A stretch of DNA of 64,000 nucleotides. It comes from Callorhinchus milii (lineage: Eukaryota). Positions 3,385 to 60,996 of the stretch are shown piece after piece; the stretch's first letter is position 1, and every line of letters begins with the position of its first letter. The stretch spans positions 66,280,001 through 66,344,000 of the forward strand of contig NW_024704742.1 of assembly GCF_018977255.1 (NCBI RefSeq), written 5' to 3'. The notes below the pieces were generated by a model. The model had not been told where the DNA came from. It searched no databases and saw only the letters and a program-made list of their open reading frames with translations. Both the position numbers and the translations under genes were made by a program.

Positions 3385-6300
3385 ACGTCCGAGGGGTAAT
3401 AGTACTTTCTCTGTACAAAAGAATGTCTTCAATTGGTGAGACTATTTAACCGTTCCCTCATCTATCTTATGGACGACTCTGGTTGATTGGTTTCTGATTC
3501 TGGTGATTAGGCTGATTTTGCACCACCTCAAATATCCCTCATTTTCCTTTTCTTTCTCTTTAATTGCTGCCTTTTGACATTTGTGGCATTCTTCACCAAG
3601 GTTTCTTCTGAAAGGAGAAATTAGCAAGTGGAATTCTTCAAAACAAGTGCTATGACTATTCTCCCCACTTCCCCCCACCTCTTGCAAAATGGGAGTCCTG
3701 TGTTACCAAAAGCTAACCATTAGGTGGACTCAAGGGCTCAATCCTCCAGACTGCTGCAGCACTTGCATTACTAAACCACCAAATTCAAATTGAATGGCAC
3801 CCAAGTGGATTTGTATCGAGTCAGATTTATGCCAGGAATTCTGAATCCCATATAGTTCCTTTATGTAATAAGTCATTGGTATCTTTTGCAATTCTCCACC
3901 ATTTCCAACTGCATTCAGCAAATGCACAAAGTGTTTAATATTTTATAACAGGCTATTGTTAGGATTTCTACTTGATCAGTACTACAAAGAACTAGACCAT
4001 TTTTACTTTAATTTGCGCAATCCAAATTGAATATTTATGCTATTTTGATTGCTTTTTATTAACCCAGGCAACTTTCCTGAGGTGAAGCAGGGGAATTTCT
4101 GAGCATTATCTGTGTTTCCAGCTTTGTTTTTCATTTGAGCAAATCCGCTGCTTTTACAAGTTGCATCTAACTCATCTGAGACTTATAAGCATACACTTGA
4201 CATTGAGAGTTTGCACTTTTCTCACAGCCGCACTTTCTCCACAAACAGGAGAGCAATTGCATTGCCAGCACGTTTCTAATCTTCTGTGATTATTTTGTCT
4301 TCAGCAATGAAGTTTCTGCATTGTGCCCTGCGCAATTCCCCCCCTCCCCCCCAAAGATTTAATAAAGATCTTCCAGAGTTAACTATTCCATAGGTCGAAA
4401 TTGGTGTGAAGCATATTCTTATGAAATGGTGCCATTCTGAGAAAAGGTATTGTGTTGCCCTCTTAAAAACCAAGCTATTCAGCAGGATTTTACAACTAAT
4501 CACTTTACAGTCAGCAACAGAATTGCTGCTGAGCTGTCAATCGAACTCAAAGGGAGTGATTTGGGGCACATAGCTGCATTGCAGAATAAATCTAGGCTGC
4601 AGGTGTCTGGTTAGAGGACAGTGTCACTGTTCCCTTTATTTTCAAATTGCGCGCCATCAGAGCACATAACCTTGCCTCTCATAGAAAGTCGTGAGTTCCT
4701 GAGACTTCTATTTCTAACTCCATTCTGAATTTCTCATCTGTTGACATTCTTGGCCTCATCATCACGGTACACCTGCATTGCTAAAGTTACCTCCAAGAAT
4801 CCCAGTTTCCCATTCATGTCAAACACATCTTTTTCCTGTCAACAACTATTAACAGTCAGAAAATCTCCAAATTGACAATTTCCCCCATATTTAGAAATAT
4901 GGGGATCTCGTTGCTCACATTACTACAAGAAATAGCCTGTGGGCAAAGGCTTAGGGACCCCAGAGTGTATGATGAGTGTTTGAGTTTAACCAACTTCAAC
5001 TGCATAAGTTTCTATTGTGAGCACTGCCTGGCAAGCTTTCCACTGCTTGTCTGCCCTACCCAATAGGATTTTGGCTGGTGGGATTAACAGGAGCCGAGTG
5101 GGAAAAATCTCTGCCCAAGTGACTCATCTGTCCCTACAAATCCTGTCAATGAACCAGGGTGGCTGTTTTTTGATCAGCAGTACTGCTGAGCCACCTGTTA
5201 CAAGTGACCANTTTTTTGTTAATGAAATCTGACTAATGTTCCCTTTTTTTTTATTTCTGTAAGAAACTGAGATGCAGTTTTTTAATCTGATGTGTTGAAT
5301 CAGTAAAATACAGCACAGATGTTTTTCGTACACTTCATTTCCTATAACATTGTATGTTCTGCACAAACAAGTTGGAGGTGATGAGATTTGCTGTCATGGG
5401 TGCAAGCCAGATTATAACAAGTTTACATTATCAAGTACACGAGGGGTCCAATGGTCTTAAATCTTAAAAGCAAACCGGAGTAAACCAGTACCAATGTGAT
5501 ATCTTTCAACAGAGAACTTTCAAAATAAGTTAAAAAAAAAGCAACAAAAGAGAATAGGAAACACAAGAGCAAATTATTTTCAGTATAAGTGATAGGCATA
5601 TGGAGCAGAGTGCAGGTGCAGATGGTAGACCAAGATACATTGATGAGTTTGGATATATTCACGTTCACACATTTAGAGATATTAGATTAAGAAATAGATA
5701 TATCAACAGGACCTTTCGAGAAAATAGATGAGACTAGATGGACTGATGTCTGAAACTGTTACTCAATACTAACTTAGAAGCCAGTTTGTGATGTGTAGGT
5801 GATTAAAAAAATATTACAGAAAATTGCTGTCTGACCGTTTTGGAGTTTTTAAAATGCATTTGGTTAAAAGTTTGCATACGGAAAAGAGTCTAGTTTGCAT
5901 GAAATGGCGATTTGATGATGTGCCCCTTCTCTGTCTGTCCTACAGTGAAAGATGTGCCACAGTATGGTTTCTAAGATCCCACAAATCTGTGCAATGCTTA
6001 TTTGCATAAGATTCCCAACAAAGCTTTTCATTATTTCTACCATCCTGTTGGTATCACCGATCGTGCCTCTGTGAATTGTTTAAAAATACTGTATTTTGAA
6101 AAAATGAACACTCATCAAATTTATAATTCTATGTGCCCTGTGACCAATTAATCTGGGAGATTGCTGGCTTGAGCACTTGGAGAAACTCGCTCTTTTTTCC
6201 GAATAGCGTAGTAGAAAATAGTTTTAAATAATAAATAGTTGCTAAAACGTGGCGCTAACATGGGATTTTTATTAAAAACTTGCAGGAAGCAATCCTGGCC

Positions 6301-18342: not shown

Positions 18343-18685
18343 AACAACAACAACAACAAGATTCCATTTATAGAGTGCCTTTCACGTCGGGAGGACGTCC
18401 CAAGGCGCTGTATAGTTGGGTCAGGACCCGAGCATTGGGGGGAAATGGTCAGGGTGAGGGGAGGGAAGGGAGGGAGCGAGGAGGGGGTAGAGAGTCGAGA
18501 GGGGAGCTGAAGGCACGGTCAAAGAGAAAGGTCTTGAGACCGGCCTTGAAGGACGAAAGGGAGGAAGCGGCGAAGGCACTGGGAGATAGAGTTCCAGAGC
18601 CTCGGGGCTGAGAGGCTGAAGGCCTGGCCACCGATGGTCGGGGGTTGAGGCGGGGGATGTGGAGCAGACCGGAGCCAGAGGAACA
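18343..18685 (-). mobile_element. L2-clade LINE 3' fragment (a closely similar 3' end lies at 21511-21695)
   Basis: (aac)n tail and L2 3' UTR, near-identical to the 21511 copy. Confidence 0.8.
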
Positions 18686-21154: not shown

Positions 21155-22628
21155 TATATTGTTGAAAAAATATTGCAATGTTGCTGTAAAACGGATCCTG
21201 TGACTGCAAATCACCTCAAAACATTTTGCAAAGGTGGAATGGGAGCCTGAGCTAGGAGGGAGATTGATAATAATAAAATAATAAACCTTGCATTTTGATA
21301 TAGCACGTTTCACGTCAGGGGGACGTCTTAAGACGTTTCACAGAATTTACTGGAAAGTGTAATTGTATTGTATAGGTGTACCCAACAGCTGATTTGCTCA
21401 CATCAATGTCCCACCAGCATGCATGAAATGAATGACCAATATTATTTAAGATTGTTAGCCAGGACACCAAGAGTAATTCCCTTTGCTTTTCGAGCAATGC
21501 CATGCAACAGGACAACAACAACAACAAGATTTAATTTATAGAGCGCCTTTCACGTCGAGAGGACGTCCCAAGGCACTGGACAGTTGGGTCAGGACCCGAG
21601 CAGGGGGCAAATGGTCAGGGTGAGGGGAGGGAAGGGAGGGAGCGAGGAGGGGTTAGAGAGTCGAGAGGGGAGCTGAAGGCACGGTTGAAGAGAAGAGGAC
21701 CTTCGTTTAACGTCTCATCCAAAATATTAGGGGGAGGTGGCCATAGGCACAGTTGAAGACAAGTCCTTAAACAGGTTTTGAAAGCAGAGAAGGCGGGCAC
21801 GAAGAGGGTGGGTGAAAGTGACTGAAAGCTCACCTGCCGATGGTAGTACAAAGCAAACTGAGGGTTACGAAGCAGGCCAGAGTTAGACCCCATGGAGTGG
21901 CTAGGGGAGTAGTGTCACAGCAGATTGAGGAAGATTGGTGTAAGGCAGTGGAGGCATATGAAGGTGAGTTCAGGGATATTAAAGTGGTATTTACAGTACA
22001 GATCCATTAAAGCAGAGGAAGACTTATAAGTTAGTAACATATAAACAGTGACGACAGAAGCTTTTTACTATGGGTGTGCGGGAGTGAGAATATCAAGTGA
22101 CCCCCTTCTCCCCCAATGAAATATACAAAGAATCGGTGTAATCGTTTGTTTAATGGCCAAACTGAAATATAGACAATTTGGAAATGGGAAGGAGGGCATA
22201 AACATACTCCTCCACCCAACGTTTTTATTGGTGAGGGCACTAGACTCTCTGCCCCCAGTTCTACCTCCACTGCATATAAATACTTCCCAAAAGAGCTCAC
22301 TTGTGCTAGTTACAAACCAAGTTTAGTTCTGTATTAACTTTAGTTCTGGGCTTTTTTTTTAATTTGAAAATTTCTGTGGGTTTCTGGAATGAACTCTCTG
22401 TGGTCACAGAAGCCAAAGGGTGAGCGAGAAGTGACTTCCTCTGACGTAGTCTGGTGTTGAGCATTAGCTAAATTGGTGCATACCTTATTCACCATTAAAA
22501 ACAAATTAACTGGTCCAAGTCAGCTTGAGACATTATGGCCCATTGAGGCTCATTGACTGTATATGTTGTGGGCGAATCTTAATGGAAAATAAAATAATTT
22601 CAACAACTTTTCTTTTCACTGAATACAG

Positions 22629-35381: not shown

Positions 35382-35620
35382 GCTTTAAGGTCAGAGCCGA
35401 GCGGTCGGTGTCTCTCTCTTTCTCCCCCGCATTTGTCTCCCCTTTCGGAGACTTTTTCTTTCAACGAGTTTCACCGTCACTGAACTCAGTGTCGCTTCAC
35501 CGGGCGACCGCGATAATATCGAGTTGCTATTTTCTGGACGGCGGTGGGTGTGTGAGTGAGTGAAGGGGGAAAAAACCAGGAGCGGCTCGAGACTCTTTCG
35601 AGTGACGGCGACTTCGGAGG

Positions 35621-35673
35621 ATGTCGGCGTCGCAGCCCGAACACCAGGCCTGTCCGAGAAACGAGCGCTTCAG
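35621..35673 (+). CDS. SLBP: SLBP exon 1
   Basis: ATG within the CpG island; MSASQPEHQACPRNERF; AG|gtaag donor, phase 2, in frame with exon 2. Confidence 0.72.
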
Positions 35674-36725
35674 GTAAGAGTCCCCGACCCCGCGGAGGCT
35701 GTTGTGTGTGTGTGTGTGTTTTTGGAGGGGGTCATTTATTTAAACCTCTCCCCCTCTCGGCGTCGGGCTCCGCCGGTGTGGAGCGCCCCGCGGGCGGGCG
35801 GGAGGGCGGGCGCTGTGCGCTGCTGTTGGAGCCGGGGCTCGCGCGGCGGCGGTTATTCGGAGCGCGGGGTTTGAAAAGGGCGCGCGGCGGAGCTGGCGGG
35901 AAACTGGCGACCACCGCCACACAGCCTCCCCCCCCCTCCCCCCCGCGCACACACCGGGCCGAGCACAACCCTCCCCTCTCCCTCCTCCATCGTTTACAAT
36001 TCTCTCCCGGTAAGGGCGCGGCAGACTCGGGATACACGCGGTTAATACCGCCGCACACACACACACACACACAGCACTGGTGTGAAGTGGGACGTTGGGC
36101 GCCCTTTGTGTGCAACCCATCTCTCGTTTGTATTTAACATGTCGGTTGGCTTTGGGCCCGAGCTTGGTTTGTGTTAGTTTGTGTTTTATATATATATATA
36201 TATATATATGTAAAAGGAGAGCAATCTGGGGAGTATTTTATTTCAAACTGGGAATTAAATCTTCCATCCCGTGTTGTCGGAAAGGAAGGGCGAGTTTGCA
36301 CGAATTTTGCGGCCGTCTATCTGTGGCAGCGCTTTTGCATTAATTACGTGTAAAAAGGTTTTACTGTGCGTTGACGCTTCGTCTTCGGATCGCGCGTAGT
36401 GTGTGTATTCAATGTGCGTTTATTTGGGTGGATGGAACCTCAAATAGACTTTGTGTGTTGCAGTTCTCGCTGTTCCTGTGGTATCTGCGATGCGCCTTTG
36501 CTTCAGTAAAACCGGAGTGAACGTCCACAGTTGGTGTTGAGGAGGGCGGGAGCTGGGGACGGCTCTTTCGGTTCGCTTGGCGCGCAAAGTAACTGTTAAC
36601 GTCGGGTGAAGGAAGCGCTTATTGCTGGGCCGATACGGTTTTATCTCTCCCCCCCCCACTCCCCCCGGGGGGAGGACGGACTGTGCAGCTCCCGCATTGA
36701 GATCTTTTTGCCTGCATCCCGGCAG

Positions 36726-36878
36726 CAGGAGGAGGCCGCCGCCATGTCGCTGGTCCTGCGGCAGGAAGCGCGGGGCCGACGGCAAACTCAGGCGACAGGA
36801 CGACTCGGACGCCACCGTCTTCGACGAGAGCAAGGACTGGTCCGCGGACTCTTCCCAGGCGGATATCAGGGTCACCAG
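36726..36878 (+). CDS. SLBP: SLBP exon 2
   Basis: PPPCRWSCGRKRGADG matches the SLBP RWSxGRKRxADG motif. Tandem CAGCAG acceptor (start 36726 or 36729); AG|gtgag donor. Confidence 0.88.
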
Positions 36879-37160
36879 GTGAGGAGGGCCTTCTGATCCG
36901 AGGGAGGGGGAGAGAAGAGGGAGCACCGAACACCCCTTCCCCCGCAGACGGCTGTCCGGTTGCAGCGCGTTTCTGGAATATGGCGCATCTCATTACAACC
37001 ACAATACTCAAAAACTCGGAGCAGTCGCTGGGTTTGGGGTGTGGGATTATTTGTTTCGCTATCTGTAACTTCAATTGTTTTAAATCCCCCCTCATACAAA
37101 TGGTGACCTGAGTATATTGACACAGCTGCCCGGTGACCTGCTCCACAAGGAACTGTGAAT

Positions 37161-37637
37161 AAAAGGCAAAATACTGCAGATTCTTAGCTTTTATCTTAAA
37201 AAAAAACAGAAGTCGCTGGGAACACGCAGCAGGTCAGGCCTCTACGGAGAGAGGAAACCGAGTTAACGTTTCAGACCTTTTGTCAGAATTGGGAGATGTT
37301 GGAAGGGAGCAGATTATAAGGAGAAGTGGCAGGGAAAGAAAGACAAAGGTAAAGTTTAGGTGGGGGCAGAAGATGATGAGATCAGAGGCGTTGATGGTGC
37401 AAGACAAAAGAAGGTAATAGTGGGAGCCTTTTGTCTTGCATCTGCAACACCTCTGATTTTATCATCTTCTGTCCCCCACCTGAATTTTTCTTTTGTATTT
37501 CTTTCCCTGCCCTCTTCTCCGCTCATCCTTATAATCTGCTCCCTTCCAATATCCCTTAGTACTGATGAAAGGTTATCAAACTGAAACGTTAACTCGTTTT
37601 CATCTCCATAGATGCTGCCTGACCTACTGCGTATTCC
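37161..37637. mobile_element. Fold-back element made of inverted Penelope-type terminal repeats
   Basis: Arms at ~37219-37410 and 37428-37637 are reverse complements. They contain gatgctgcctgacc and CTGATGA...GAAACGTT. Confidence 0.75.
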
Positions 37638-38030
37638 CTCTCAACCCCATCCTCACCCGACTCCACTGGCTTCCCATCACACAGAGGATACAGTTCAAGA
37701 TCCTGGTCCTCATCTGCAAAGCCCTCCATGGTCTTGCTTCCCCCCTACCTCTGTGACATCCTAACCCTCTACCATCCTGCTTGCTCCCTCAGCTCAGCGG
37801 GCTCCGGCCTGCTTCATGTCCCCGCCTTACTCGCTCCACTATAGGCAGGCAGGCGTTCTGCCACTCTGCCCCCACCCTCTGAAACTCCATCCCGCAGACC
37901 CTCCGCCTTTCCCCCTCCCCTGCTTCCTTCAAGACCCTCTGACAGTGCTTTCAATCACCCCACCCTGAAACTCTGACTGTCCAGTGCCTTGGGATGACCT
38001 CCCAATGTGAAAGGCGCTATATAAATGTTC
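37638..38030 (+). mobile_element. L2-clade LINE 3' fragment
   Basis: PILTRLHWLPITQRIQFKILVLICKALHGLA and the conserved L2 3' end. Confidence 0.85.
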
Positions 38031-38422
38031 TGTTTTTATTCCACAAGGGGCTGTGCTTTGCTGACAAGTCTAAACAACAGACTATCTGATTTGAGAAGTG
38101 TTGCTGAATAGTATGCTTGGTTTCTTCCCCTTTTTGTTGTGGGATGATTGGCACCAAACTGCTGTTGCCAATTCAACCGTTGATCCCACCTTGTTAACTT
38201 ATCTCCCCCCTCCCTCACTGTTTGCCTTTTGATTCTGGTTTACCCAACTACTTTGACTGTTTATACTCCACACAAGCCCACTATCACCCCTCCTTGTTGC
38301 AGGAGAAATGTTTATAGGTGCGGGACCTCACTAATCTGCATAACTTTAATGTTAGTATATGCAAAATCACTGCACTTTTTTAAAAAATTTGGTGGTTTTA
38401 ATGTTAGGTTTATTTTTTCCAG

Positions 38423-38533
38423 TTTCACAACACCAGAGAGTGAGGGTCCAGTCTCCAGATGTTCCTCTGGTGACTGGGGATCTGCAGTTGAAGAAGAGGA
38501 AACGCGACAGACCATTTATCAGGATTTAAAAAG
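38423..38533 (+). CDS. SLBP: SLBP exon 3
   Basis: Contains the SFTTP phosphodegron and the DWGSAVEEE translation-activation (SLIP1-binding) motif. Phase 2-2. Confidence 0.95.
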
Positions 38534-38742
38534 GTTTGTATACTTACTACTTTTGGAAGAAAGTATATTTTTAAATAAAGTGAACTCAGGTATATCAAAA
38601 GAATAATTGAGGGGGTGGTTAAGATTCTGTATTGGGGTGCTATATGCTTTTTTAAATCTGTCTTGGCCCCTGATTTTATCATGACTGCATTAGTATAATT
38701 TTCTATGTGTTGGATTAATGGACTGTTTTTAATCTGTTTAAG

Positions 38743-38805
38743 ATATAGAAGAAGGCTGTTGCTAAATGACTTCAATGAACAGGAAAAGGATTGCTCTTCT
38801 GAAAG
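38743..38805 (+). CDS. SLBP: SLBP exon 4
   Basis: RYRRRLLLNDFNEQEKDCSSE versus human RYKRKLLINDF (RxL cyclin-binding region). 63 nt, phase 2-2. Confidence 0.93.
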
Positions 38806-39805
38806 GTATTTACTTATGTGCCTGTTGCTCCAGTGTTGTGATTGTTAGTCCTAAAATAGCACTCTGTTAGACAGAGTAATCTTAAATCATTGTAAGGCAT
38901 TGAGTGGAGACCGTTTAATGGGCTGTAGGTTGCTTGTTGCCAGACCAACGTCATGATAGTATTTAAAACAATGTTTTTTGGCTCTTGGGGTATGTTTTGC
39001 CTACAAAATATACAGTCAATTCACTTTACAGTATATTCTGTGAAGTGCTTTAAGATCTCTTGAAGACGTGATAAGACACTATATCAAATGTAAGGATTAT
39101 TATTATTGCATGTCTGTCCCATTTTTCTCCCTAGAAATGCAAAGAGCCCTGTGACTTACCCCTAACATAAAAGAACCAGTTGTGGAAAGACTCTTGTACT
39201 AGTTTAAACAGGGTGGCTGTGCAGCCTTTGCAGTGATAGGATCCTAGAGAATGAGTTCCTGGATATAAATGCTTCATTAGGGATGATTTTTTCTTTGTCT
39301 AAAACAGAACTCTTTAAGAATCTGCTCTGTTAGATGGGTTTTTAGTTGCCCTCCACTTCTCCAAGTAGAATAAATAAAGCTGCTGCAAATTCAAGCAGTG
39401 CAATGAGATGGTATTGTGGAATACAACAACCACAAGATTACATTTGTATAGCGCCTTTCACAACGGGAGGATGTCCCAAGGGGCTGAATAGGCCCGTTGA
39501 GCCTGTTCTAATACTTGTCTCCATCTCTTAATACTCTTCTTTCCCATGCTCTGGGGCAGTGTTTTCATATCTTATGTGAAAACATATTTTCTAGTTTAAC
39601 TCTAACTCAATTTTATTTCAATTATACCCCAGTGAAGTGGCGTTTCGAATAGCTTTTATTGGTAACTGTAGTGAGAGCATATTGCGTAATTAATAAACAA
39701 ACTGGTTATTCCTTTTGGAGTTTTTTCCTATTTCCCAAATCCCAGCCAATTACAAGAGTTTGGGGAGCAGTAACTACTGAATGTGTAATAATTGACTTCT
39801 TTCAG

Positions 39806-39940
39806 TTCCAGTTGCTCCAGGGAATCATTGGTATCTTCAGAACTTGAAACTGATGAAGTAGTGCTAATGAGAAGACAGAAGCAGATCAACTATGGGAAGA
39901 ATACAATTGCATATGATCGATTCACACGAGAAGTTCCAAA
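39806..39940 (+). CDS. SLBP: SLBP exon 5 (RNA-binding domain, first half)
   Basis: [31 protein letters not shown], with canonical splice sites. Confidence 0.97.
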
Positions 39941-40504
39941 GTAAGGCTGCAATTATAATAAGTTCTTGCTGAGTTCTGGTTTGAATCCACAATGTGTGCC
40001 TAAGCTTTTGTCATTGGAGGGGATCTTAACCTATGGCTGTTTGGTTAGTTCAGTACCGATTGTTAATTGTTGGGTCTCTATTCACTTATATAATATGATA
40101 ACATGAAGGAAAGGGATTCTTGGTAGACTATATACACATCTGAGAAGTTCTTGTTAACCTGTTCCTTCACCTTCATGAAGTGACTAATCAAACTTAGTGA
40201 ACATGGGTGAAATCTGTTTCAACAAAGGTGTTCTTGGTCAGGAACTATATTCCATATACGGTAAAGTTGCAAAATTGAGCCATATAAATTAGTTTGTTGG
40301 CATTTGCTTCCTGTTAAACCATCATCAAATCTGGCTGTTAAACAACAGTCCAAGTGTCATCTGTTACTAATGGATTAAGTGAATTAGATTACCGTCTTGT
40401 TAATTAATTAAATGTTATTCTTTAATCATGGATTTCCAGCTTCAACTCGTCACTGATACTACAAATGAAAATGAGTTAGACGTATTTGTGCAATTTTCTT
40501 ACAG

Positions 40505-40651
40505 GCACCTTCGGAAGCCAGGTGTTCATCCAAGAACTCCCAACAAGTTTAAGAAGTTCAGTCGTAGGTCCTGGGACCAGCAGATTAGGTTGTGGAGGAT
40601 TTCACTGCATGACTGGGATCCACCAGCAGAAGGAAGTGATTTACAGGCAAT
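40505..40651 (+). CDS. SLBP: SLBP exon 6 (RNA-binding domain, second half)
   Basis: [40 protein letters not shown], including the TPNK motif. Confidence 0.97.
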
Positions 40652-40872
40652 GTATGTGTATTGTTTAAGTATTTGCTGATACTAAAATGATCTAGCTTGC
40701 AGGTTGTAGTTTGTGGTATTGATGTCTGCATAAGGATGGAATTTGAGAATGTGGATTGAGTTGTTCCATTGAGCTGCTAGTATCACTTAGATTATATTTA
40801 ATCTATTAATCTGTAATAATAGATCTATTAATCTATTAATTGATCTATTAATCTATTAGATTATATTTAATT

Positions 40873-41189
40873 GTGGAGTCCTGTAGCTCAGTGGTTAGAG
40901 CACTCGCTTTGCAAGTGAGAGACCTGAGTTCAATTCCAGGCAGAGGGCGAAACCTTGGGCAAGTTTCCTTACTCCACACAGAGCCTAATAATAATCCCTC
41001 CAAAACCAAAAACAATAATAAATTGGTCATTTTCAATCTACGACTGTTTGTGGGACATTGCTGTGCGCAATTGGCTGCCGCGTTCGCCCACAAATATACA
41101 GTCAATTCACTTTACAGTGTGTTCTGTGAAGCACTTTGGGGCGTCCTCCCGACGTGAAAAGCGCTATATCAAATGCAAGGATTATTATT
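40873..41189 (+). mobile_element. tRNA-derived SINE, young subfamily
   Basis: Near-identical to the copies at 14527, 53431 and 60997. Confidence 0.9.
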
Positions 41190-42131
41190 TAAAATGCTGC
41201 ACTTGTTGTTTCTGCCATTGTTATACTGCATGGTTCTGTATGCCATTGGTTCCCTAACTGGGATCCATGAGATGGTTTTGGGGGGTCCGCATAGGACTTG
41301 TTGCGACCTTCTGCGCTGCTTCAGACCTGCTCTGCCTCTCTCATCCTGTTGTTTCTCATGCTGCCTTGTTGAGCTCTGATCTACCAGGAGATCCTTACAG
41401 TCATTTCTCAGCCCAAAGCCAGGCTCACAGTAACTAGCAGTGCAGTTTGTGCAGTGAGAAGTTGTGCTCCATGCATGTTCTCAGGCTGTACAATATCATC
41501 GAATCCCTGGGAAACAGCACCAGTCTGTACTGGGGCCATGAGGACTAGTGCCTTTTTCAGCCACTACGCCCCGAAACTCAGCATCCCTCAGTCTTGCCCA
41601 TTCTTCCCCATATTCAGATCACACCCGAAGACCTTCCTCTATGCCAACTCTACAATCACCACTCCCTGGCTCTGCGTTGTGCTCTGCCATTGTCAAACGC
41701 TCTGGGGTGCTACTCTGCGTAAGGTGCATGAACATGCAAGTTGTTTTTCTTGCCCTCTCAACGACCATGTCTCACTGCCCCTGCAGGAAACCCATGCAGC
41801 GGCACAGCCTTAGTGGGGGTCTTCGTCAGGATACGTAATGATTGTAGGGGCCCTGAGCCCAGAAAGTTTGGGGACTCCTGGTGTATCGATAGTTAACAAT
41901 AAAGCAGTGTGTAGGTATTAAGAAAGGTTCCTAGGTTGGCGATGGCTTGATCTTCTCTTAGACGTTTCTTTTTCTAGCTACGAGTTAGGTAGAGGCAGAG
42001 GTGGGGAGTTCCAGGTGTTGGGTTCATAGTATCTATTTGAATGCATATATACCATTGCTGGTGTAGAGAGGGTGGGGGACCCGCAGCTGTGATCTACAGT
42101 ATGCACTTCGTAGCTTAACTTGTCGCTGCCA

Positions 42132-42260
42132 AGCAACAGGCATATAAGCAAATACCTTTCAGAAGAGCAATCCTTTTTCTGGTCATTGAAGTCATTTAGC
42201 AACAGCCTTCTATATCTTAAACAGATTAAAAACAATCAATTAAACCAACACACACAAAAT
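42132..42260 (-). repeat. Inverted duplicate of SLBP exon 4 plus flanking intron (source 38698-38829)
   Basis: By hand, the reverse complement aligns with 9 substitutions and one 3-nt gap over 132 nt. The exon-equivalent part is 42156-42215, with AG and GT retained. Confidence 0.95.
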
Positions 42261-42387
42261 CATTGTGTTGTCAATATCCCACCAGCATTTATTTATGCGT
42301 TTGTACATCTGCCTGATTTGCCATTCTTGGTAACTCATCACTGAGCCCTTTTCCTTTGGAGTGATGCGTTATCAGGAGTTTAATGTA

Positions 42388-42562
42388 CAGTAAAACTTGC
42401 ATAAGTCTGATTTGTTTAAATTGTGTAGTTGCCTAAATTGTACATCTACCCAAGTCATGTTCTCAAGAGTTTATATTCTATGCAAATTTGACATAACTCT
42501 TATCTTGCATGAGTCGTATTACATGTATTGTCCCAGCTGTTATATTTATGTGAGATTGACTG
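42388..42562. mobile_element. Tc1/pogo-like MITE
   Basis: TA|CAGTAAAACTTGCATAA ... TTATGTGAGATTGACTG|TA imperfect terminal inverted repeats. Confidence 0.6.
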
Positions 42563-42948
42563 TAGTAAGCATTTTGGGTGAGAACAACAATGGGTCCCAA
42601 AGCCTTGGATGTTTCCAACCTGTGCCTAATATTTACTGTAATTAAGGGAACTGGATACGTCCGTCCTGAGAGAGAGTGCATACCGTTCCAACTATTTGTC
42701 TCGGATTTCTGTGTGTAGGTGGGATGCATGGAAATCTCAGCTTGGTTTGGATACTCTTAAGCACGGTGATGGATTTCCATATGTGTCAAGACACCCAGGT
42801 GACCAAAAAAATTAGGAAGATGAGAAAAGATTATTTGACCTATGAAGCTCATCTCTCTACTTGTGTTTCAGTAGTGTTTTATATCCTTCTGTTTTACAAC
42901 AAATGCTGTTTTAAGTAAAACTTTGATCTTGATTTATCTGTACTCTAG

Positions 42949-43066
42949 CACAACGCTTGATCTCGATGATGTAATGGAAACTGAGTCTGTAAATGGCTCC
43001 GGTGAAAGTGGAATAAGTTCCCTTGGTGGGAGAGGATGCACTCCAAACAACATGCCATCCTCTCAG
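42949..43066 (+). CDS. SLBP: SLBP exon 7
   Basis: ctctag| acceptor and CAG|gtatg donor. Phase 2-0, acidic and Ser-rich: ITTLDLDDVMETES...PSSQ. Confidence 0.8.
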
Positions 43067-43210
43067 GTATGCTTCTTATAATTAACCCCAAGTGCACTGA
43101 GTGAGTCGTTTTTATCTCATTTGTTATTTTTGGTACCTTTGGGGAAGTGAGATGAATACTCTTATTTAATGAAAGAAAATATTGTCCAAAGATAAATGAT
43201 CCTTGATGTA

Positions 43211-43611
43211 CAGTAAACTAACTAACTCGACCCTGGCTTAACTTGTCACTATGGTTTAGCTAGTCATGCCGTCAATATCCAGGCTGCTGCCCATGCAAAA
43301 TTTTAATAAAGGACGTAACTTTACTCGTCACTCCACTTAACATGCAACTTGTCACGTTGTAGATATTCTTGTAACTGCTTAAAATGCAAAATTGATTGGA
43401 CAACTTGTCCTATAAGACAGTGTTTTGTATCACAGAGGCCACCTGCCTGGTCATGTGACTGTAGTGGGCCCTCAGCAGAGGCATGCTGCCCGAGTAGAAG
43501 AATGGCGCCTGGTAGCATAAGGTGACGAAATATGGCCAATTCATCATCACATTGGATAATTCATCACTGGGCCCTTTTCCCTTGGAATGATAAGTTGCCT
43601 AGAGTTCACTG
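43211..43611. mobile_element. Tc1/pogo-like MITE relic (related relic at 42097-42385)
   Basis: TA|CAGTAAACT ... AGTTCACTG|TA ends with repeated taactcgtcac-like subterminal motifs. Both ends are shared with 42097-42385. Confidence 0.55.
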
Positions 43612-44293
43612 TAGTTCCTTCCTAGGAGGATCCCTTGAGCATTTCACAGGATTCAGTGTAAAGTGTAGTGACTCTGAACTTGTAGGTGAATAAAGTAGCC
43701 AATTTACACACAGTAGTCTCACAATAAGCAAGGAAATATATTACTAATTTCAATTTTGTATCACTGGATATAATTAGCGGTAAAGTGGAAACTCGCCAAG
43801 AGCACGCCACTAAATATGGTGAACTTGCTCATATGGCTACTTTTTGGAATCTTCATTTTTCAACACTATAACGCAGTGGAAATTCCAGTTAGTTAACTAA
43901 TGAGATTCTACTGGACATAGGTCTTAATTTATCACTTGTTGCATCAGAGCAGCTTACTTTTGATTTCCCCTTAAAAATGACGGACATCCAAGTTGTCTGG
44001 TTGCTGCTGTCATTTTATGCATAGGAAGCTGTTACTTACTGTGTACTGCACTCTTAAGGAAGTGCCATTAATGTCACTTTGTGAAGGAAGTGATTGATGT
44101 GCATTGCGCTTTCTGTGCATGTGCAGGAAGTGATATTGGTGACCACCTGGAATTGGCCTTTTTTTACCACAGGAAGCCACAGTGCAACATGCCGGAACTT
44201 TCCATATTGTAATTGACAGATTTGTGATTTCATGTGTATATCCTGAGTTCTCCAGATATGTACTTATAGAACATTTCTTTTTTTAATATATAG

Positions 44294-44413
44294 GTCTCTT
44301 CCTCAACTACTCCAATGAAGCCCAAAGAGTTTACATCTTTTGATGAAAGGAATGAATTTAATTTGCAGGACTGTTTGGCTGACACAGATGAAGTTGATTC
44401 TTTGTTGAGCTAG
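44294..44413 (+). CDS. SLBP: SLBP exon 8 (terminal), stop TAG
   Basis: VSSSTTPMK...NEFNLQDCLADTDEVDSLLS* versus human TPTK...DEFDLEACL. Total CDS 900 nt = 299 aa plus stop. Confidence 0.88.
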   Translation, partial: VSSSTTPMKPKEFTSFDERNEFNLQDCLADTDEVDSLLS

Positions 44414-48932: not shown

Positions 48933-49385
48933 TAATAATAATAATAATAATAACCCTTGCATTTGATACAGCGCCTTTCACGTCGGGAGGATGCCCCAAC
49001 GCTTGTTGGTTTGCCGGATTTTTGGTAACAACAATAATCCTTGCGTGTGGCGACGCCACTTTATCACGCTGTCGAGGCATCTCAAAACGCTTCTCAGAAT
49101 ATATTGTAAAGTGCGGTGACTGTGTACTTTGTGGGCAAAACGCGGCAGCTAATTGCGCTCAGCGGTGTCCCACAAACAGTCGCGGATTGAGTGACCAAAT
49201 TCTTCTTATTTTATTTATTTATTTTTTGGAGGGATTGTTAGCCCCATGAAAGAGATCCGCCAATCAACTAACAGCCTTACTGTCGAGTAAGGAGACTTGC
49301 CTAAGGTTTCGCCCTGCCCAGGGATCGAACCTGGGTCCTCTCACTCGCGAGCCGAGCGCTCTAACCAATACGCTACAGGACTCCA
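48933..49385 (-). mobile_element. tRNA-derived SINE with an additional SINE/L2 tail
   Basis: Minus-strand head at about 49300-49385 and two tails. Confidence 0.75.
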
Positions 49386-51650: not shown

Positions 51651-51955
51651 TAATAATAATAATCCTTGCATTTGATATAAGGCTTTTCACGTCTTCTAGA
51701 CGTCTCAAAGCGCTTCACAGAAAAGACTGTAAAGTGAATTGACTGTATATGTGTGGGTGAAATACGGCAGCCATTTGCGCACAGCAGTGTCCCACAAACA
51801 GTCATGGATTGAAGTGACTATTGTTTTTTTTCTTGAGGGATTATTATCAGGGGTGTGGAGTAAGGAAATTTGCTCAAGGTTTCACCTGCCGGGACTCAAG
51901 CCCAGGTCTCTCACTTGCAAAGCGAGTGCTCTAACCACTGAGCCACAGTAATCCA
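51651..51955 (-). mobile_element. tRNA-derived SINE
   Basis: Minus-strand full-length short-type copy. Confidence 0.85.
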
Positions 51956-58368: not shown

Positions 58369-60616
58369 GTATGTGAGTAGGCCATGTATTTTCACAATAT
58401 GTCTAGTGTGATAGTTTTTATAGAATAATATTTTTTGGGAAGACATCTCAAAAGTGCTTTACATGATATACTTTGAAGTGTAGTGACTGTATTTTGAGGG
58501 CAAAAGGTCAATTTGCACACAGCAGCATCCCACAAACAGACATGAACTGAATGGTAAATATTCATTATATTCATAAAATGGAAATGAAGTGTTTATAAAA
58601 TAATAAAATAATCCTCACATTTGTATTTGAGGCAATCCTTACCTCATCTTCATAAAGTACAATATTCTATATTAAATTGCCAGATATCAGCTTGGCTCAG
58701 TTAGTACCACTCTCACTTCTGAGTCAGAAGATTGTCATAGTCCATGTTGCAAAACCAGTGCAGTACCAGGGATGTGCTGCATTGCCAGAGGTGCCACCTG
58801 TTTGGATGAGACATTGAACATTGGTTTTGTCTGCCTGCTCAGGTGATATTTGAAGATCCCATAGCACTATTTGAAAAGAGAATGAGGTTTTTTCTGATGT
58901 CCTGCAAAACAATCCTCCCAGAAAAATTGGTCATTCTGTTCAAATCCTGTGAAGTGCTTTGAGATGTTTGTCGACATGATCATAATAATCCTTGTATTTG
59001 ATAGAGTGCCTTGTCATGTTGTTAAGGTGTCTCAAAGCGATTTACAGGAATTACTGTAATGACTGTGTATTTGTAGGTGAATGTGACAGCCAATTTGTGC
59101 ACAGCAATGTCCCACAAATAGCCATGAAGTGAATGACCAATTTTATCTGAGGCACCATATTAAATGCAAGGATTATTATTATTATCATTATCTAATGTCC
59201 AGGGTAGAGCTTTGATTTAGCATACTTCTGATATGAGTGTTGTGCCAGGATTACATCCTGCATACAAACTCTTAGACAAGTAAGAATACTGCAGTTGAGG
59301 TTGTGTGATTCTAGTTAGTTAGACTGCAGCAGAACCCCAATGCACACTTGGGCCCCCAAGCCCTGACTCTTGCCAACCTGAGTAATACTTACTGGAATTA
59401 GGTAAGCAGGATGCATCCCTCCAGGGAGAGAATGCACATTCCACTCCTACAATCTATCTGGAATTTCCATGTGTAGGTGGGATGCATGGAATTCTCAAAA
59501 CAAAAACAGAAGTCGCTGGGAACACTTCTGTTTTTGTTTTCAGATTTGCAGCATCTGCAGTATTTCGTATTTTTTTTGCATGAAATTCTCAGTTTGGTTT
59601 GGGTGCTCTTAAGCATGGTGATAGGTTTGTGCATGTGTCAGACACCTGGCTAACCCTTCCTACCCCCTCCCCCCTACACACACACACACACAACAAGTTG
59701 ATCTAGTAGGCTTAGCTGGTGATTATTTTTGTTGTTTTAGTTAACTCATTGATATGTGGATTGCAAAAGAATAGAGTAGGAAAATCAATTCCAGTGATGT
59801 ATCATAGAAATGTAGGAATGTACAAAACTGGAAAAGACCTATGGGTATGTCGAGTGGGCCTCAAAAGTTTTGAAAAAATATATAACCCTATACTGTACTT
59901 CTCATATCCTTTAATTGATTTATTTGCCAAATAGCTATCTACTTCCCTGTCTCATTTTACCTCCATTGACACTCTTGGTAGTCTATGCCAGATATTCTCC
60001 ATTAACTAAAATAATTAAATTCATACTGCTTGCTTTTGTGTTCTGTAAAATAACTATTGAAATTGATTTTGTTTCTGCAAAATATTCTGTATCTTGGGTG
60101 TTATATTTTGGAGGTAATCAAAAATACTGAATTATAACATTAACAAAATAACCTCTAGATTTCCATTTAGGAGAACACAGTACACGAAAAGTTAATAATT
60201 TAATGGCTGCAGTTTGATGCTGTAGCACCACCGCGTGGTCTAAATATGTTACATCAAGTGATGCTCAGAAACAAATATATTCTAGGCTTTTGTTTTGGTC
60301 AGCTATTTAAGAGTATTGAAGCTAAACTAAGTGATCCATGCATCCCATCTATACGTTCACCCACAAAATACATACAGTCATGCCACTTTACCGTATATCC
60401 TCATGAAGCATTTTGAGACCTGTTAAGGCCCTCAATCAAATGCAAGGATTATTATATTATTATAGTACGAGTATCAACGTGGCATGGGTCATGAGTACAA
60501 TGCTGAACACCTGACCCCCAGATTGATCCACGGATTTAGCTCAAATCCAGTGATACATGGAAGATTCTTTTCTCAAAGGAGGAAGATCTTTGGCTGCCGC
60601 GTTTCGCCCACATATA

Positions 60617-60996
60617 TACAATCAATTCACTTTATAGTATATTCTGTGAAGCGCTTTGAGACGTCTGGAAAACGTGAAAAGTGCCATATATCAAATGCAA
60701 ATATTATTTATTATTATGTTAAGAGCCACAAAATCTTAATATATTGCTCACATATATATTGGTTGCCTGTGTTGTGTCAGGTTTAAATATTCAATCAATG
60801 TACTATTTACAATCAATTCACTTTATAGTATATTCTGTGAAGCGCTTTGAGACATCTGGAAAACGTGAAAAGTGCCATATATCAAATGCAAATATTATTT
60901 ATTATTATGTTAAGAGCCACAAAATCTTAATATATTGCTCACATATATATTGGTTGCCTGTGTTGTGTCAGGTTTAAATATTCAATCAATGTACTA
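60617..60996 (+). repeat. Tandem duplication, two ~189-bp units (60617-60805 and 60808-60996)
   Basis: The units look identical by eye apart from one G/A difference. Confidence 0.95.

What the first reader, a model, noticed from the sequence alone, without database searches (positions are those of the whole stretch)
38698..42260. SLBP pre-mRNA carries a built-in antisense copy of its own exon 4
Seen: 42132-42260 in intron 6 is the reverse complement of 38698-38829, covering the 3' splice region, all of exon 4 and its donor. There are 9 mismatches and one codon-sized gap in 132 nt. The pair brackets exons 5-6, which encode the RNA-binding domain. Established: exon 4 encodes the RxL cyclin-binding motif involved in SLBP destruction after S phase. 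Long intramolecular duplexes can mask splice sites, recruit ADAR and promote back-splicing. Inference: pairing could cause in-frame skipping of the 63-nt exon, giving a more stable SLBP, or circularise exons 5-6. That would be a self-contained cis-antisense control of histone mRNA processing.
Basis: partly seen in the sequence, partly recalled or inferred. Interest (0 to 1): 0.78.

Follow-up and report, generated by a model that had tools for sequence, protein, structure and literature searches.

The report
Backwards exon copy in shark SLBP intron
The elephant-shark gene for the histone-mRNA stem-loop binding protein really does carry a backwards copy of one small exon in a later intron, but it most likely is ordinary DNA-copying debris, and no effect on the gene has been shown.

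Summary
Window 38695-38829 covers the last 48 nt of intron 3, the 63-nt exon 4 and the first 24 nt of intron 4 of Callorhinchus milii SLBP. It recurs as a reverse complement at 42132-42263 in intron 6, with 10 mismatches and one 3-nt gap. These are the only two copies in the 991-Mb assembly. They are not a transposon, and their borders are sharp.

- Exon 4 carries the RxL-type motif.
- Skipping exon 4 keeps the reading frame.
- Exons 5-6, which encode the RNA-binding domain, lie between the arms.
- The predicted RNA duplex is very stable (-180 kcal/mol).

Indirect evidence favours a neutral by-product:
- An arbitrary 200-kb block of the same genome held three non-transposon local inverted duplications.
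- The differences lie where the parent is least constrained.
- Only 2 of 10 mismatches keep RNA pairing.
- All three database entries for this protein include exon 4.

The scan noted similar exon-bearing inverted copies before: CLNK in this genome (partly re-checked here) and slit, HCFC1, RIM-BP and pericentrin in other genomes.

Verdict: a new member of a known kind, of low to moderate interest.

The parts
35621..44413 (+). SLBP coding region, start codon to stop codon, 8 coding exons
   Evidence: The exon model translates exactly to P0001, 299 aa. P0001 is named histone RNA hairpin-binding protein [Callorhinchus milii] by its sources.
38695..38829 (+). Arm 1, the parent: last 48 nt of intron 3, all of exon 4, first 24 nt of intron 4
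   Evidence: exon borders.
38743..38805 (+). Exon 4, 63 nt. It encodes (R)YRRRLLLNDFNEQEKDCSSE with the RxL-type motif. Its acceptor is AAG and its donor is gtattt, without G at +5.
   Evidence: alignment.
42132..42263 (-). Arm 2: inverted copy of arm 1, 132 nt, inside intron 6. It lies 1480 nt after the exon 6 donor and 685 nt before the exon 7 acceptor.
   Evidence: The flanks 41900-42131 and 42264 to about 42380 are unique in the genome.
39806..39940 (+). Exon 5, first half of the RNA-binding domain, between the arms
40505..40651 (+). Exon 6, second half of the RNA-binding domain, between the arms
40652..42948 (+). Intron 6, 2297 nt. It hosts the copy, a tRNA-derived SINE (about 40881-41189) and an old interspersed repeat (about 41555-41753).

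Best explanation
This is a lineage-specific local inverted micro-duplication that does not involve a transposon. A 135-nt piece of the SLBP gene (exon 4 with its splice-site flanks) was copied backwards into intron 6, 3.3 kb downstream. The likely cause is a replication or repair template switch (inferred). The copy has since drifted by about 8%. Because both arms lie in one pre-mRNA, they can in principle form a 132-bp imperfect duplex. That duplex would cover the branch-point region, acceptor, exon and donor of exon 4. I judge that this has no selected role. Any editing, exon-4 skipping or exon 5-6 circle it causes would be a tolerated minor by-product. The anatomy, the copy number, the predicted duplex energy and the genome base rate are shown. 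The origin mechanism and the absence of function are inferred.
For: - Only two copies exist in 991.5 Mb, both local and inverted.
- The immediate flanks are unique sequence, the borders are sharp, and no other homologous block links intron 6 to the rest of the gene.
- Base rate: an arbitrarily chosen 200-kb block (C1:20000001-20200000) gave 5 candidate inverted pairs. Three of these 5 were non-transposon, two-copy, local inverted duplications: 243 nt/97%/887 nt apart, 90 nt/87%/93 nt apart, and 50 nt/100%/400 nt apart. The other two were transposon-related. That is about 15 per Mb (Poisson 95% about 3-44 per Mb), or thousands genome-wide. Some should therefore enclose a small exon by chance.
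- A second exon-like case 27 Mb away was re-checked: 102 nt, 96% complementary, two copies only.
- Six of the 10 mismatches lie in the distal intron-3 part (38697-38723). None lies in the last 19 nt before the acceptor, and 2 lie in 60 aligned exon columns. Differences thus accumulate where the parent is least constrained.
- Only 2 of 10 mismatches keep a G:U pair.
- The 3-nt gap is loss of one unit of an AGAAGAAG triplet repeat, so slippage explains it without appeal to the reading frame.
- Both exon differences change the amino acid in the copy.
- All 3 of 3 cluster members for this species' protein contain exon 4.
Against: - No RNA data were seen, so an effect on splicing, editing or circularisation is not excluded.
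- The duplex is very stable: -179.6 kcal/mol against -32.7 +/- 4.7 for 100 shuffles. It is the most complementary inverted pair in the gene. It is also the only high-identity local pair in the 64-kb window whose arms are single-copy there.
- Exon 4 has the weakest-looking splice signals of the gene by eye: the only AAG acceptor and the only donor without G at +5. It could therefore be sensitive to masking.
- The exon part differs less (2 of 60) than the intron parts (8 of 72). This is in the direction expected if pairing mattered, but it is equally expected from constraint on the parent, and it is not significant (Fisher p 0.11).
- The base rate rests on one 200-kb block, whose pairs are more closely spaced (93-887 nt) than this one (3.3 kb).
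Confidence: 0.68

Rival explanations
1. Cis-antisense splicing switch. Once intron 6 is transcribed, the copy pairs with exon 4 and its splice sites in transcripts where exon 4 is not yet committed. This hides the exon and yields an in-frame SLBP without the 21 residues that carry the RxL cyclin-binding and nuclear-import motif. Such a protein might escape end-of-S-phase destruction.
For: - The duplex covers the branch region, acceptor, exon and donor and is very stable.
- Exon 4 has weak-looking signals.
- Skipping keeps the frame.
- Entries lacking exactly this segment exist in 4 of 77 vertebrate SLBP entries that carry both flanking motifs.
- Human KRKL in exon 4 is described as the cyclin-binding site and a nuclear-import element (PMC3764509, passages).
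Against: - No exon-4-less entry exists for this species (3 of 3 cluster members contain it).
- The variants on record in sharks and rays (3 of 8 aligned entries) lack exon 3, not exon 4. The human variants reported lack exons 2 and/or 3 (PMC3764509).
- The second arm is made only after 3.3 kb more transcription, past two short introns (209 and 1000 nt).
- There is no sign of selection for pairing.
- The same kind of duplication is common in this genome.
Confidence: 0.1
2. ECS-like ADAR substrate. The intronic copy acts like an editing-site complementary sequence, so that adenosines in exon 4 or its flanks are deaminated before intron 6 is removed. This would recode the motif region or alter splice signals.
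For: - A 132-bp duplex with uninterrupted runs of up to 32 bp is predicted.
- Even after introns 3 and 4 are removed, the exon alone still pairs at -94.9 kcal/mol.
- Three of the mismatches are A:C, a context that favours editing (recalled). All three lie in the intronic parts.
Against: - Editing was not observable here.
- The database protein equals the genomic translation of exon 4, so these entries show no recoding at consensus level.
- Known ECS elements are conserved (recalled), whereas this copy looks young and decaying.
Confidence: 0.09
3. Loop-out of exons 5-6. Pairing brings the exon 5 acceptor and the exon 6 donor together. This would give a 282-nt circular RNA of exons 5-6, or a linear in-frame mRNA without the RNA-binding domain.
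For: - The arms bracket exons 5-6.
- 135+147 = 282 nt, and skipping exons 5-6 keeps the frame.
- Inverted repeats in flanking introns are known to promote circles (recalled).
Against: - No back-splice data were available.
- A search of the paper library for circSLBP terms found 0 papers.
- The arms lie 1000 nt and 1480 nt from the relevant splice sites.
- Several SINE-derived inverted pairs in the gene compete.
Confidence: 0.08
4. Assembly artefact: the inverted copy does not exist in the animal's DNA.
For: Only one assembly was examined, and no independent reads were laid.
Against: The arms differ at 10 positions plus a 3-nt gap and sit 3.3 kb apart in unique sequence. Artefactual fold-backs are expected to be identical and adjacent (inference).
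Confidence: 0.03

Closest known systems
Template-switch / templated inverted insertions. Short template-switch mutations: PMC5453318, PMC7954356. Creation of RNA hairpins by template switching: PMC8794818. For all three only the search listing and start of abstract were seen. FoSTeS/MMBIR is recalled.
   Same: A nearby stretch is copied in reverse complement without a transposon. This creates a potential RNA helix, and many such events lie scattered in a genome.
   Different: The event here is longer (132 nt) and lies farther from its source (3.3 kb) than the short-range events named in those titles. Junction microhomology and the empty ancestral site could not be examined.
ADAR editing-site complementary sequences. 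GluR-B exon-intron duplexes: PMC1920255. Distant intronic element of Gabra-3: PMC3479170. For both only the search listing and start of abstract were seen.
   Same: An intronic stretch complementary to an exon of the same pre-mRNA forms double-stranded RNA before the intron is removed.
   Different: Those elements are defined by observed editing and, as I recall, by conservation. Here editing is untested, the element is a recent wholesale copy including both splice sites, and it shows decay.
Inverted-repeat (SINE/Alu) pairs that loop out exons and drive circular RNAs or exon skipping (recalled). Conserved long-range pairings linked to splicing: PMC8052449, PMC2724269 (search listing and start of abstract only).
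   Same: Long-range complementary arms in one pre-mRNA bracket exons (here exons 5-6).
   Different: The arms are not transposons, one arm is itself an exon with its splice sites, and no conservation or junction evidence exists.
Known SLBP alternative splicing (PMC3764509; abstract and passages read)
   Same: In-frame loss of an N-terminal exon that carries degradation or localisation signals changes the protein's properties.
   Different: The reported human variants lack exons 2 and/or 3 and are linked to replication stress, not to an RNA duplex. Exon 4 loss is seen only as database entries in four other species.
Earlier notes of this scan (unchecked AI notes): exon-bearing inverted copies in CLNK (same genome) and in slit, HCFC1, RIM-BP and pericentrin (other genomes)
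   Same: The anatomy is the same: a backwards copy of an exon with flanks in a nearby intron of the same gene. Those notes read it as rearrangement debris of unproven function.
   Different: The genes and sizes differ. Only the CLNK pair was re-checked here, for existence and copy number.

Membership tests
SLBP (histone RNA hairpin-binding protein) gene | SLBP RNA-binding domain (Pfam PF15247) | tested here: met
   P0001 residues 143-211, E 1.6e-28, 99 bits against a cutoff of 27. These residues are encoded by exons 5-6.
SLBP (histone RNA hairpin-binding protein) gene | The exon model in the window reproduces the protein on record | tested here: met
   The 900-nt spliced frame equals P0001 exactly.
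SLBP (histone RNA hairpin-binding protein) gene | RxL-type cyclin-binding motif encoded by exon 4 | tested here: met
   RYRRRLLLNDF in exon 4 aligns with RYKR(R/K)LL(L/I)N(D/E)F of other vertebrates. Human KRKL in exon 4 is called a cyclin-binding site in PMC3764509. Binding itself was not tested.
Non-transposon local inverted micro-duplication | Exactly two copies in the genome, near each other, in opposite orientation | tested here: met
   Two places only in 991.5 Mb, 3.3 kb apart, on opposite strands.
Non-transposon local inverted micro-duplication | Not carried by, or bounded by, an interspersed repeat | tested here: met
   41900-42131 is unique. 42264 to about 42380 is unique before a common repeat starts. 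The nearest repeat on the other side ends near 41753.
Non-transposon local inverted micro-duplication | Sharp borders and a single block | tested here: met
   The local alignment stops at 38695/38829. A sensitive blastn of 41501-43000 against 35500-41500 finds only this block at E below 0.1.
Non-transposon local inverted micro-duplication | Junction microhomology or an empty ancestral site in a relative | not testable with these tools
   No related genome is held (one search states no relatives). By eye there is no clear microhomology or target-site duplication at the junctions.
ADAR editing-site complementary sequence | Exon pairs with an intronic complement in the same pre-mRNA | tested here: met
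   Predicted duplex of -179.6 kcal/mol; exon alone -94.9 kcal/mol. This is a prediction only.
ADAR editing-site complementary sequence | A-to-I editing observed at the paired exon | not testable with these tools
ADAR editing-site complementary sequence | Pairing conserved across species | not testable with these tools
   No relatives are held. Within the pair, only 2 of 10 mismatches keep a wobble pair.
Inverted-repeat-driven circular RNA / loop-out skipping | Complementary arms on both sides of the looped exons | tested here: met
   Arms at 38695-38829 and 42132-42263 bracket exons 5 and 6.
Inverted-repeat-driven circular RNA / loop-out skipping | Back-splice or skipping junction in RNA | not testable with these tools
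   No reads were laid. 0 papers were found for circSLBP terms.
Structure-regulated cassette exon | An isoform without the exon exists in this species | tested here: inconclusive
   All 3 of 3 entries in the protein's cluster contain exon 4. Database entries cannot show absence of a minor isoform.

The most novel reading that the evidence does not exclude
The backwards exon copy is a built-in, self-contained switch. Whether it pairs with exon 4 before that exon is spliced would depend on transcription speed or on helicase or ADAR activity. The gene would then toggle between normal SLBP and a form without the cyclin-binding/nuclear-import motif that outlasts S phase, or a circle of the RNA-binding-domain exons. 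Histone mRNA handling would thus be tied to the state of the transcription machinery. If exon-bearing inverted copies proved enriched over the genome's background of such duplications, this would be a general way to make new regulated exons.
Probability: 0.07. Interest if true: 0.75.

Novelty: new member of a known kind. Interest (0 to 1): 0.24.

Why it matters
If it were functional, this would be a clean natural example of a gene regulating one of its own exons through a copied antisense segment. The exon concerned controls when the master histone-mRNA factor is destroyed. As it stands, its main value is as a well-defined test case: two arms, known junctions, in-frame outcomes. It also points to a background process. 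Small non-transposon inverted duplications seem frequent in the elephant-shark genome, at roughly 15 per Mb in one sampled block. They will sometimes enclose exons and so create raw material for RNA-structure-based regulation.

Tried and rejected
- **RNA evidence.** The look-up of sequencing runs listed 14 runs, with no RNA holder on record. Junctions, back-splices, editing and independent confirmation of the assembly therefore remain unexamined. The small word shares of the unlaid runs are not used as evidence.
- **Relatives.** The genome tool holds no relatives of this assembly, so presence or decay of the copy in other chimaeras could not be checked.
- **Transposon origin: rejected.** There are two copies only and the flanks are unique.
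- **Larger eroded duplication or complex rearrangement: rejected.** There is one block only, with sharp borders.
- **A coding role for the copy on the minus strand.** The frame is open (85 aa stop to stop), but it has no Pfam match. Both substitutions change the residue, and no minus-strand gene is known here. This was not pursued.
- **Rfam scan of 30000-52000.** It gave only three tRNA-like hits, which are SINE heads.
- **Wider base-rate sampling.** The estimate therefore rests on one block.
- **Earlier notes.** Look-ups by place and by sequence returned nothing.
- **Literature.** 0 papers were found for circSLBP terms. No paper on an exon-4 antisense copy in SLBP appeared in the listings of the SLBP splicing search, which held 70 papers of which 15 were listed.
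Full report
**What is there.** Reading both places and the repeat finder show that window 38695-38829 on the plus strand recurs as its reverse complement at 42132-42263. A local alignment with extra flanks gives 135 against 132 nt, with 10 mismatches and one 3-nt gap, and it stops sharply at both ends. The whole 991.5-Mb assembly contains only these two places (E 4.7e-63 and 5.5e-45). The repeat is therefore real, far beyond chance, and not a repeat family.

- An eight-exon model translates exactly to that protein: 35621-35673, 36726-36878, 38423-38533, 38743-38805, 39806-39940, 40505-40651, 42949-43066, 44294-44413.
- The copied block is therefore the last 48 nt of intron 3, all 63 nt of exon 4 and the first 24 nt of intron 4.
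- The copy lies in intron 6 (40652-42948), 1480 nt after the exon 6 donor and 685 nt before the exon 7 acceptor.
- Exon 4 encodes (R)YRRRLLLNDFNEQEKDCSSE, which aligns with RYKRRLLLNDF in sharks and rays and RYRRKLLINEF in Xenopus.
- Pfam places the RNA-binding domain at residues 143-211, which is in exons 5 and 6.
- Skipping exon 4, skipping exons 5-6 and skipping exon 3 all keep the frame. Exons 5+6 total 282 nt.

**Not a transposon, not a complex rearrangement.**
- The 232 nt on one side of the copy (41900-42131) are unique in the genome.
- On the other side, about 115 nt are unique before a common repeat begins near 42380.
- The nearest repeat upstream in the intron ends near 41753.
- A sensitive blastn of 41501-43000 against the rest of the gene finds only this one block at E below 0.1.
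- In the 64-kb window this is the only local pair (at least 88% identity, at least 40 nt, within 10 kb) whose arms are single-copy in the window. All others belong to multi-copy SINE-type families.

**What the RNA could do.**
- ViennaRNA predicts a duplex of -179.6 kcal/mol for the two arms, against -32.7 +/- 4.7 for 100 simple shuffles of one arm.
- The spliced exon alone still pairs with the copy at -94.9 kcal/mol.
- The longest uninterrupted run of Watson-Crick or G:U pairs is 32 bp.
- The duplex would cover the branch region, pyrimidine tract, acceptor, the whole exon (including a GAAGAAG stretch) and the donor.
- Exon 4 has the only AAG acceptor among the seven acceptors and the only donor without G at +5 among the seven donors. 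By eye it is therefore the exon most likely to be sensitive to masking.
- Against an effect: the second arm is transcribed 3.3 kb after the first, past two short introns of 209 and 1000 nt. Exon 4 may often be committed before pairing is possible (inference).

**Signs of selection or decay.** (All counts are unless stated.)
- Six of the ten mismatches lie in the distal intron-3 part (38697-38723). None lies in the 19 nt before the acceptor. Two lie in the 60 aligned exon columns and two in the 24 nt of intron 4.
- Exon against intron gives 2/60 against 8/72, Fisher p 0.11.
- This pattern is expected if the parent is held by its own coding and splicing constraints while the copy drifts.
- Only 2 of 10 mismatches leave a G:U pair. 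There are six transitions and four transversions.
- The 3-nt gap removes one unit of AGAAGAAG, a slippage-prone triplet repeat, so its codon size needs no selective explanation.
- In the copy's frame both substitutions change the residue (E to D, E to K).
- At the first of these the copy carries D, the residue of all eight shark and ray entries aligned. That change probably happened in the parent after the duplication (inference), which suggests the event is not very recent.
- Nothing in the pair points to maintenance of pairing, but with ten differences the test is weak.

**Base rate in this genome.** I took one block at an arbitrary round coordinate (C1:20000001-20200000). I searched it for local pairs of at least 85% identity, at least 40 nt and within 10 kb that were single-copy in the 264 kb at hand. 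I then checked all five inverted candidates against the whole genome.

| Pair | Identity | Spacing | Result |
|---|---|---|---|
| 243 nt | 97% | 887 nt | two copies only |
| 90 nt | 87% | 93 nt | two copies only |
| 50 nt | 100% | 400 nt | two copies only |
| 150 nt | 88.7% | 655 nt | transposon-related |
| 89 nt | 91% | 383 nt | transposon-related |

- One direct pair of 95 nt was also two-copy.
- Three events in 200 kb is about 15 per Mb (Poisson 95% about 3-44 per Mb), or thousands to tens of thousands genome-wide.
- In the SLBP gene itself, about 1.3% of start positions would make a 135-nt segment enclose a whole internal exon. This figure is my own arithmetic from the exon lengths (117 of about 8800 start positions).
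- Genome-wide the fraction must be several-fold lower (inference from recalled typical exon densities). Tens of exon-enclosing inverted copies are therefore expected without any selection.
- The estimate is rough. It rests on one block, and its pairs are closer together than the SLBP pair.

**Earlier notes of the scan.** A word search returned five earlier notes of the same anatomy: one in this genome (CLNK) and four in other genomes (slit, HCFC1, RIM-BP, pericentrin). Their follow-ups read them as rearrangement by-products of unproven function. These are unchecked AI notes. I re-checked only the CLNK place:
- A 102-nt inverted pair, 96% complementary and 344 nt apart, exists at L008:3485-3586 and 3931-4032.
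- It has only those two copies in the genome.
- It encloses an exon-like segment with an AG acceptor and a GT donor.
- I did not verify the gene name or its splicing.

**Isoforms on record.**
- For this species, all three members of the protein's 90% cluster contain exon 4. One differs only by a longer N-terminus and one residue.
- Among the 120 listed vertebrate SLBP entries, 77 carry recognisable motifs on both sides of exon 4. Four of these 77 lack exactly the exon-4 segment: a mole-rat entry, a horse entry, a pika 'isoform X2' and a catfish entry. The other 43 entries lacked one or both motifs and were not scored.
- An exon-4-less form is thus on record in other species. Whether their introns hold a similar copy was not examined.
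- Three of the eight shark and ray entries aligned lack exon 3, the SFTTP exon. This matches the human exon-3-less variant described in PMC3764509.
- Predicted database entries cannot show that a minor isoform is absent.

**What could not be done.** The run search listed 14 runs, none on record as RNA. Exon-4 skipping, the exon 5-6 back-splice, A-to-G editing and independent confirmation of the assembly are all untested. No relatives of the assembly are held.

**Verdict.**
- Best-supported reading (about 0.68): a neutral, lineage-specific local inverted micro-duplication of the template-switch or templated-insertion kind. For the related papers PMC5453318, PMC7954356 and PMC8794818, only listings and abstract starts were seen. 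The duplication happens to enclose a small, weakly defined exon, and any RNA consequences are tolerated by-products.
- Functional readings together hold about 0.27: splicing switch 0.10, ECS-like editing 0.09, exon 5-6 loop-out or circle 0.08. Each is directly testable with the junctions given.
- An assembly artefact is unlikely (0.03), because the arms have diverged.

The case works like long-range complementary elements known from ADAR substrates, inverted-repeat circular RNAs and structure-regulated exons. For PMC1920255, PMC3479170, PMC8052449 and PMC2724269, only listings and abstract starts were seen. Membership in any of those functional classes is unproven. I rate it a new member of a known kind, with low to moderate interest.

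Noticed in passing
G000:C1:39289485-39290032 (L008:3485-3586 and 3931-4032): A second inverted pair in the same genome: 102 nt, 96% complementary, 344 nt apart, only two copies genome-wide. It encloses an exon-like segment with an AG acceptor and a GT donor.
   Followed up: partly
G000:C1:20065631-20067002; 20193368-20193639; 20169181-20169679 (L015, L028, L025): Three non-transposon, two-copy local inverted duplications lie in one arbitrary 200-kb block: 243 nt/97%, 90 nt/87% and 50 nt/100%. This suggests that such events are frequent in this genome.
   Followed up: partly
window 37977-38028 and 39440-39491: SINE tails in opposite orientation (52 nt, 81% complementary) lie in introns 2 and 4 and bracket exons 3-4. 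They form a conventional inverted-repeat pair that competes with the exon-4 pair.
   Followed up: no
window 37249-37606: A nested set of inverted repeats in intron 2, with arms of 26-66 nt and 77-92% complementarity, forms a roughly 360-nt palindromic element. It may be a hairpin-type mobile element.
   Followed up: no
window 40881-40943 (+), 49310-49381 (-), 51886-51948 (-): Three tRNA-like Rfam hits, probably heads of tRNA-derived SINEs. The first lies in intron 6 of SLBP.
   Followed up: no
window 40647-40649: The window and P0001 have Ala (GCA) in DLQAI, where two other database entries of the same species (P0121, P0122) have Thr. This is probably a polymorphism or a difference between assemblies.
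   Followed up: no
proteins P0002, P0004, P0007: Shark and ray SLBP entries of 255-259 aa lack exactly the exon-3 segment (SFTTP...DLK). This parallels the human exon-3-less variant and hints at an old, shared alternative splicing event.
   Followed up: partly
window 60613-60994: Tandem duplication of a 191-nt unit at 99% identity.
   Followed up: no
window 18344-18531 and 21512-21698: A direct pair of about 189 nt at 92.6% identity, 3 kb apart and low-copy within the window. It includes a purine-rich stretch.
   Followed up: no
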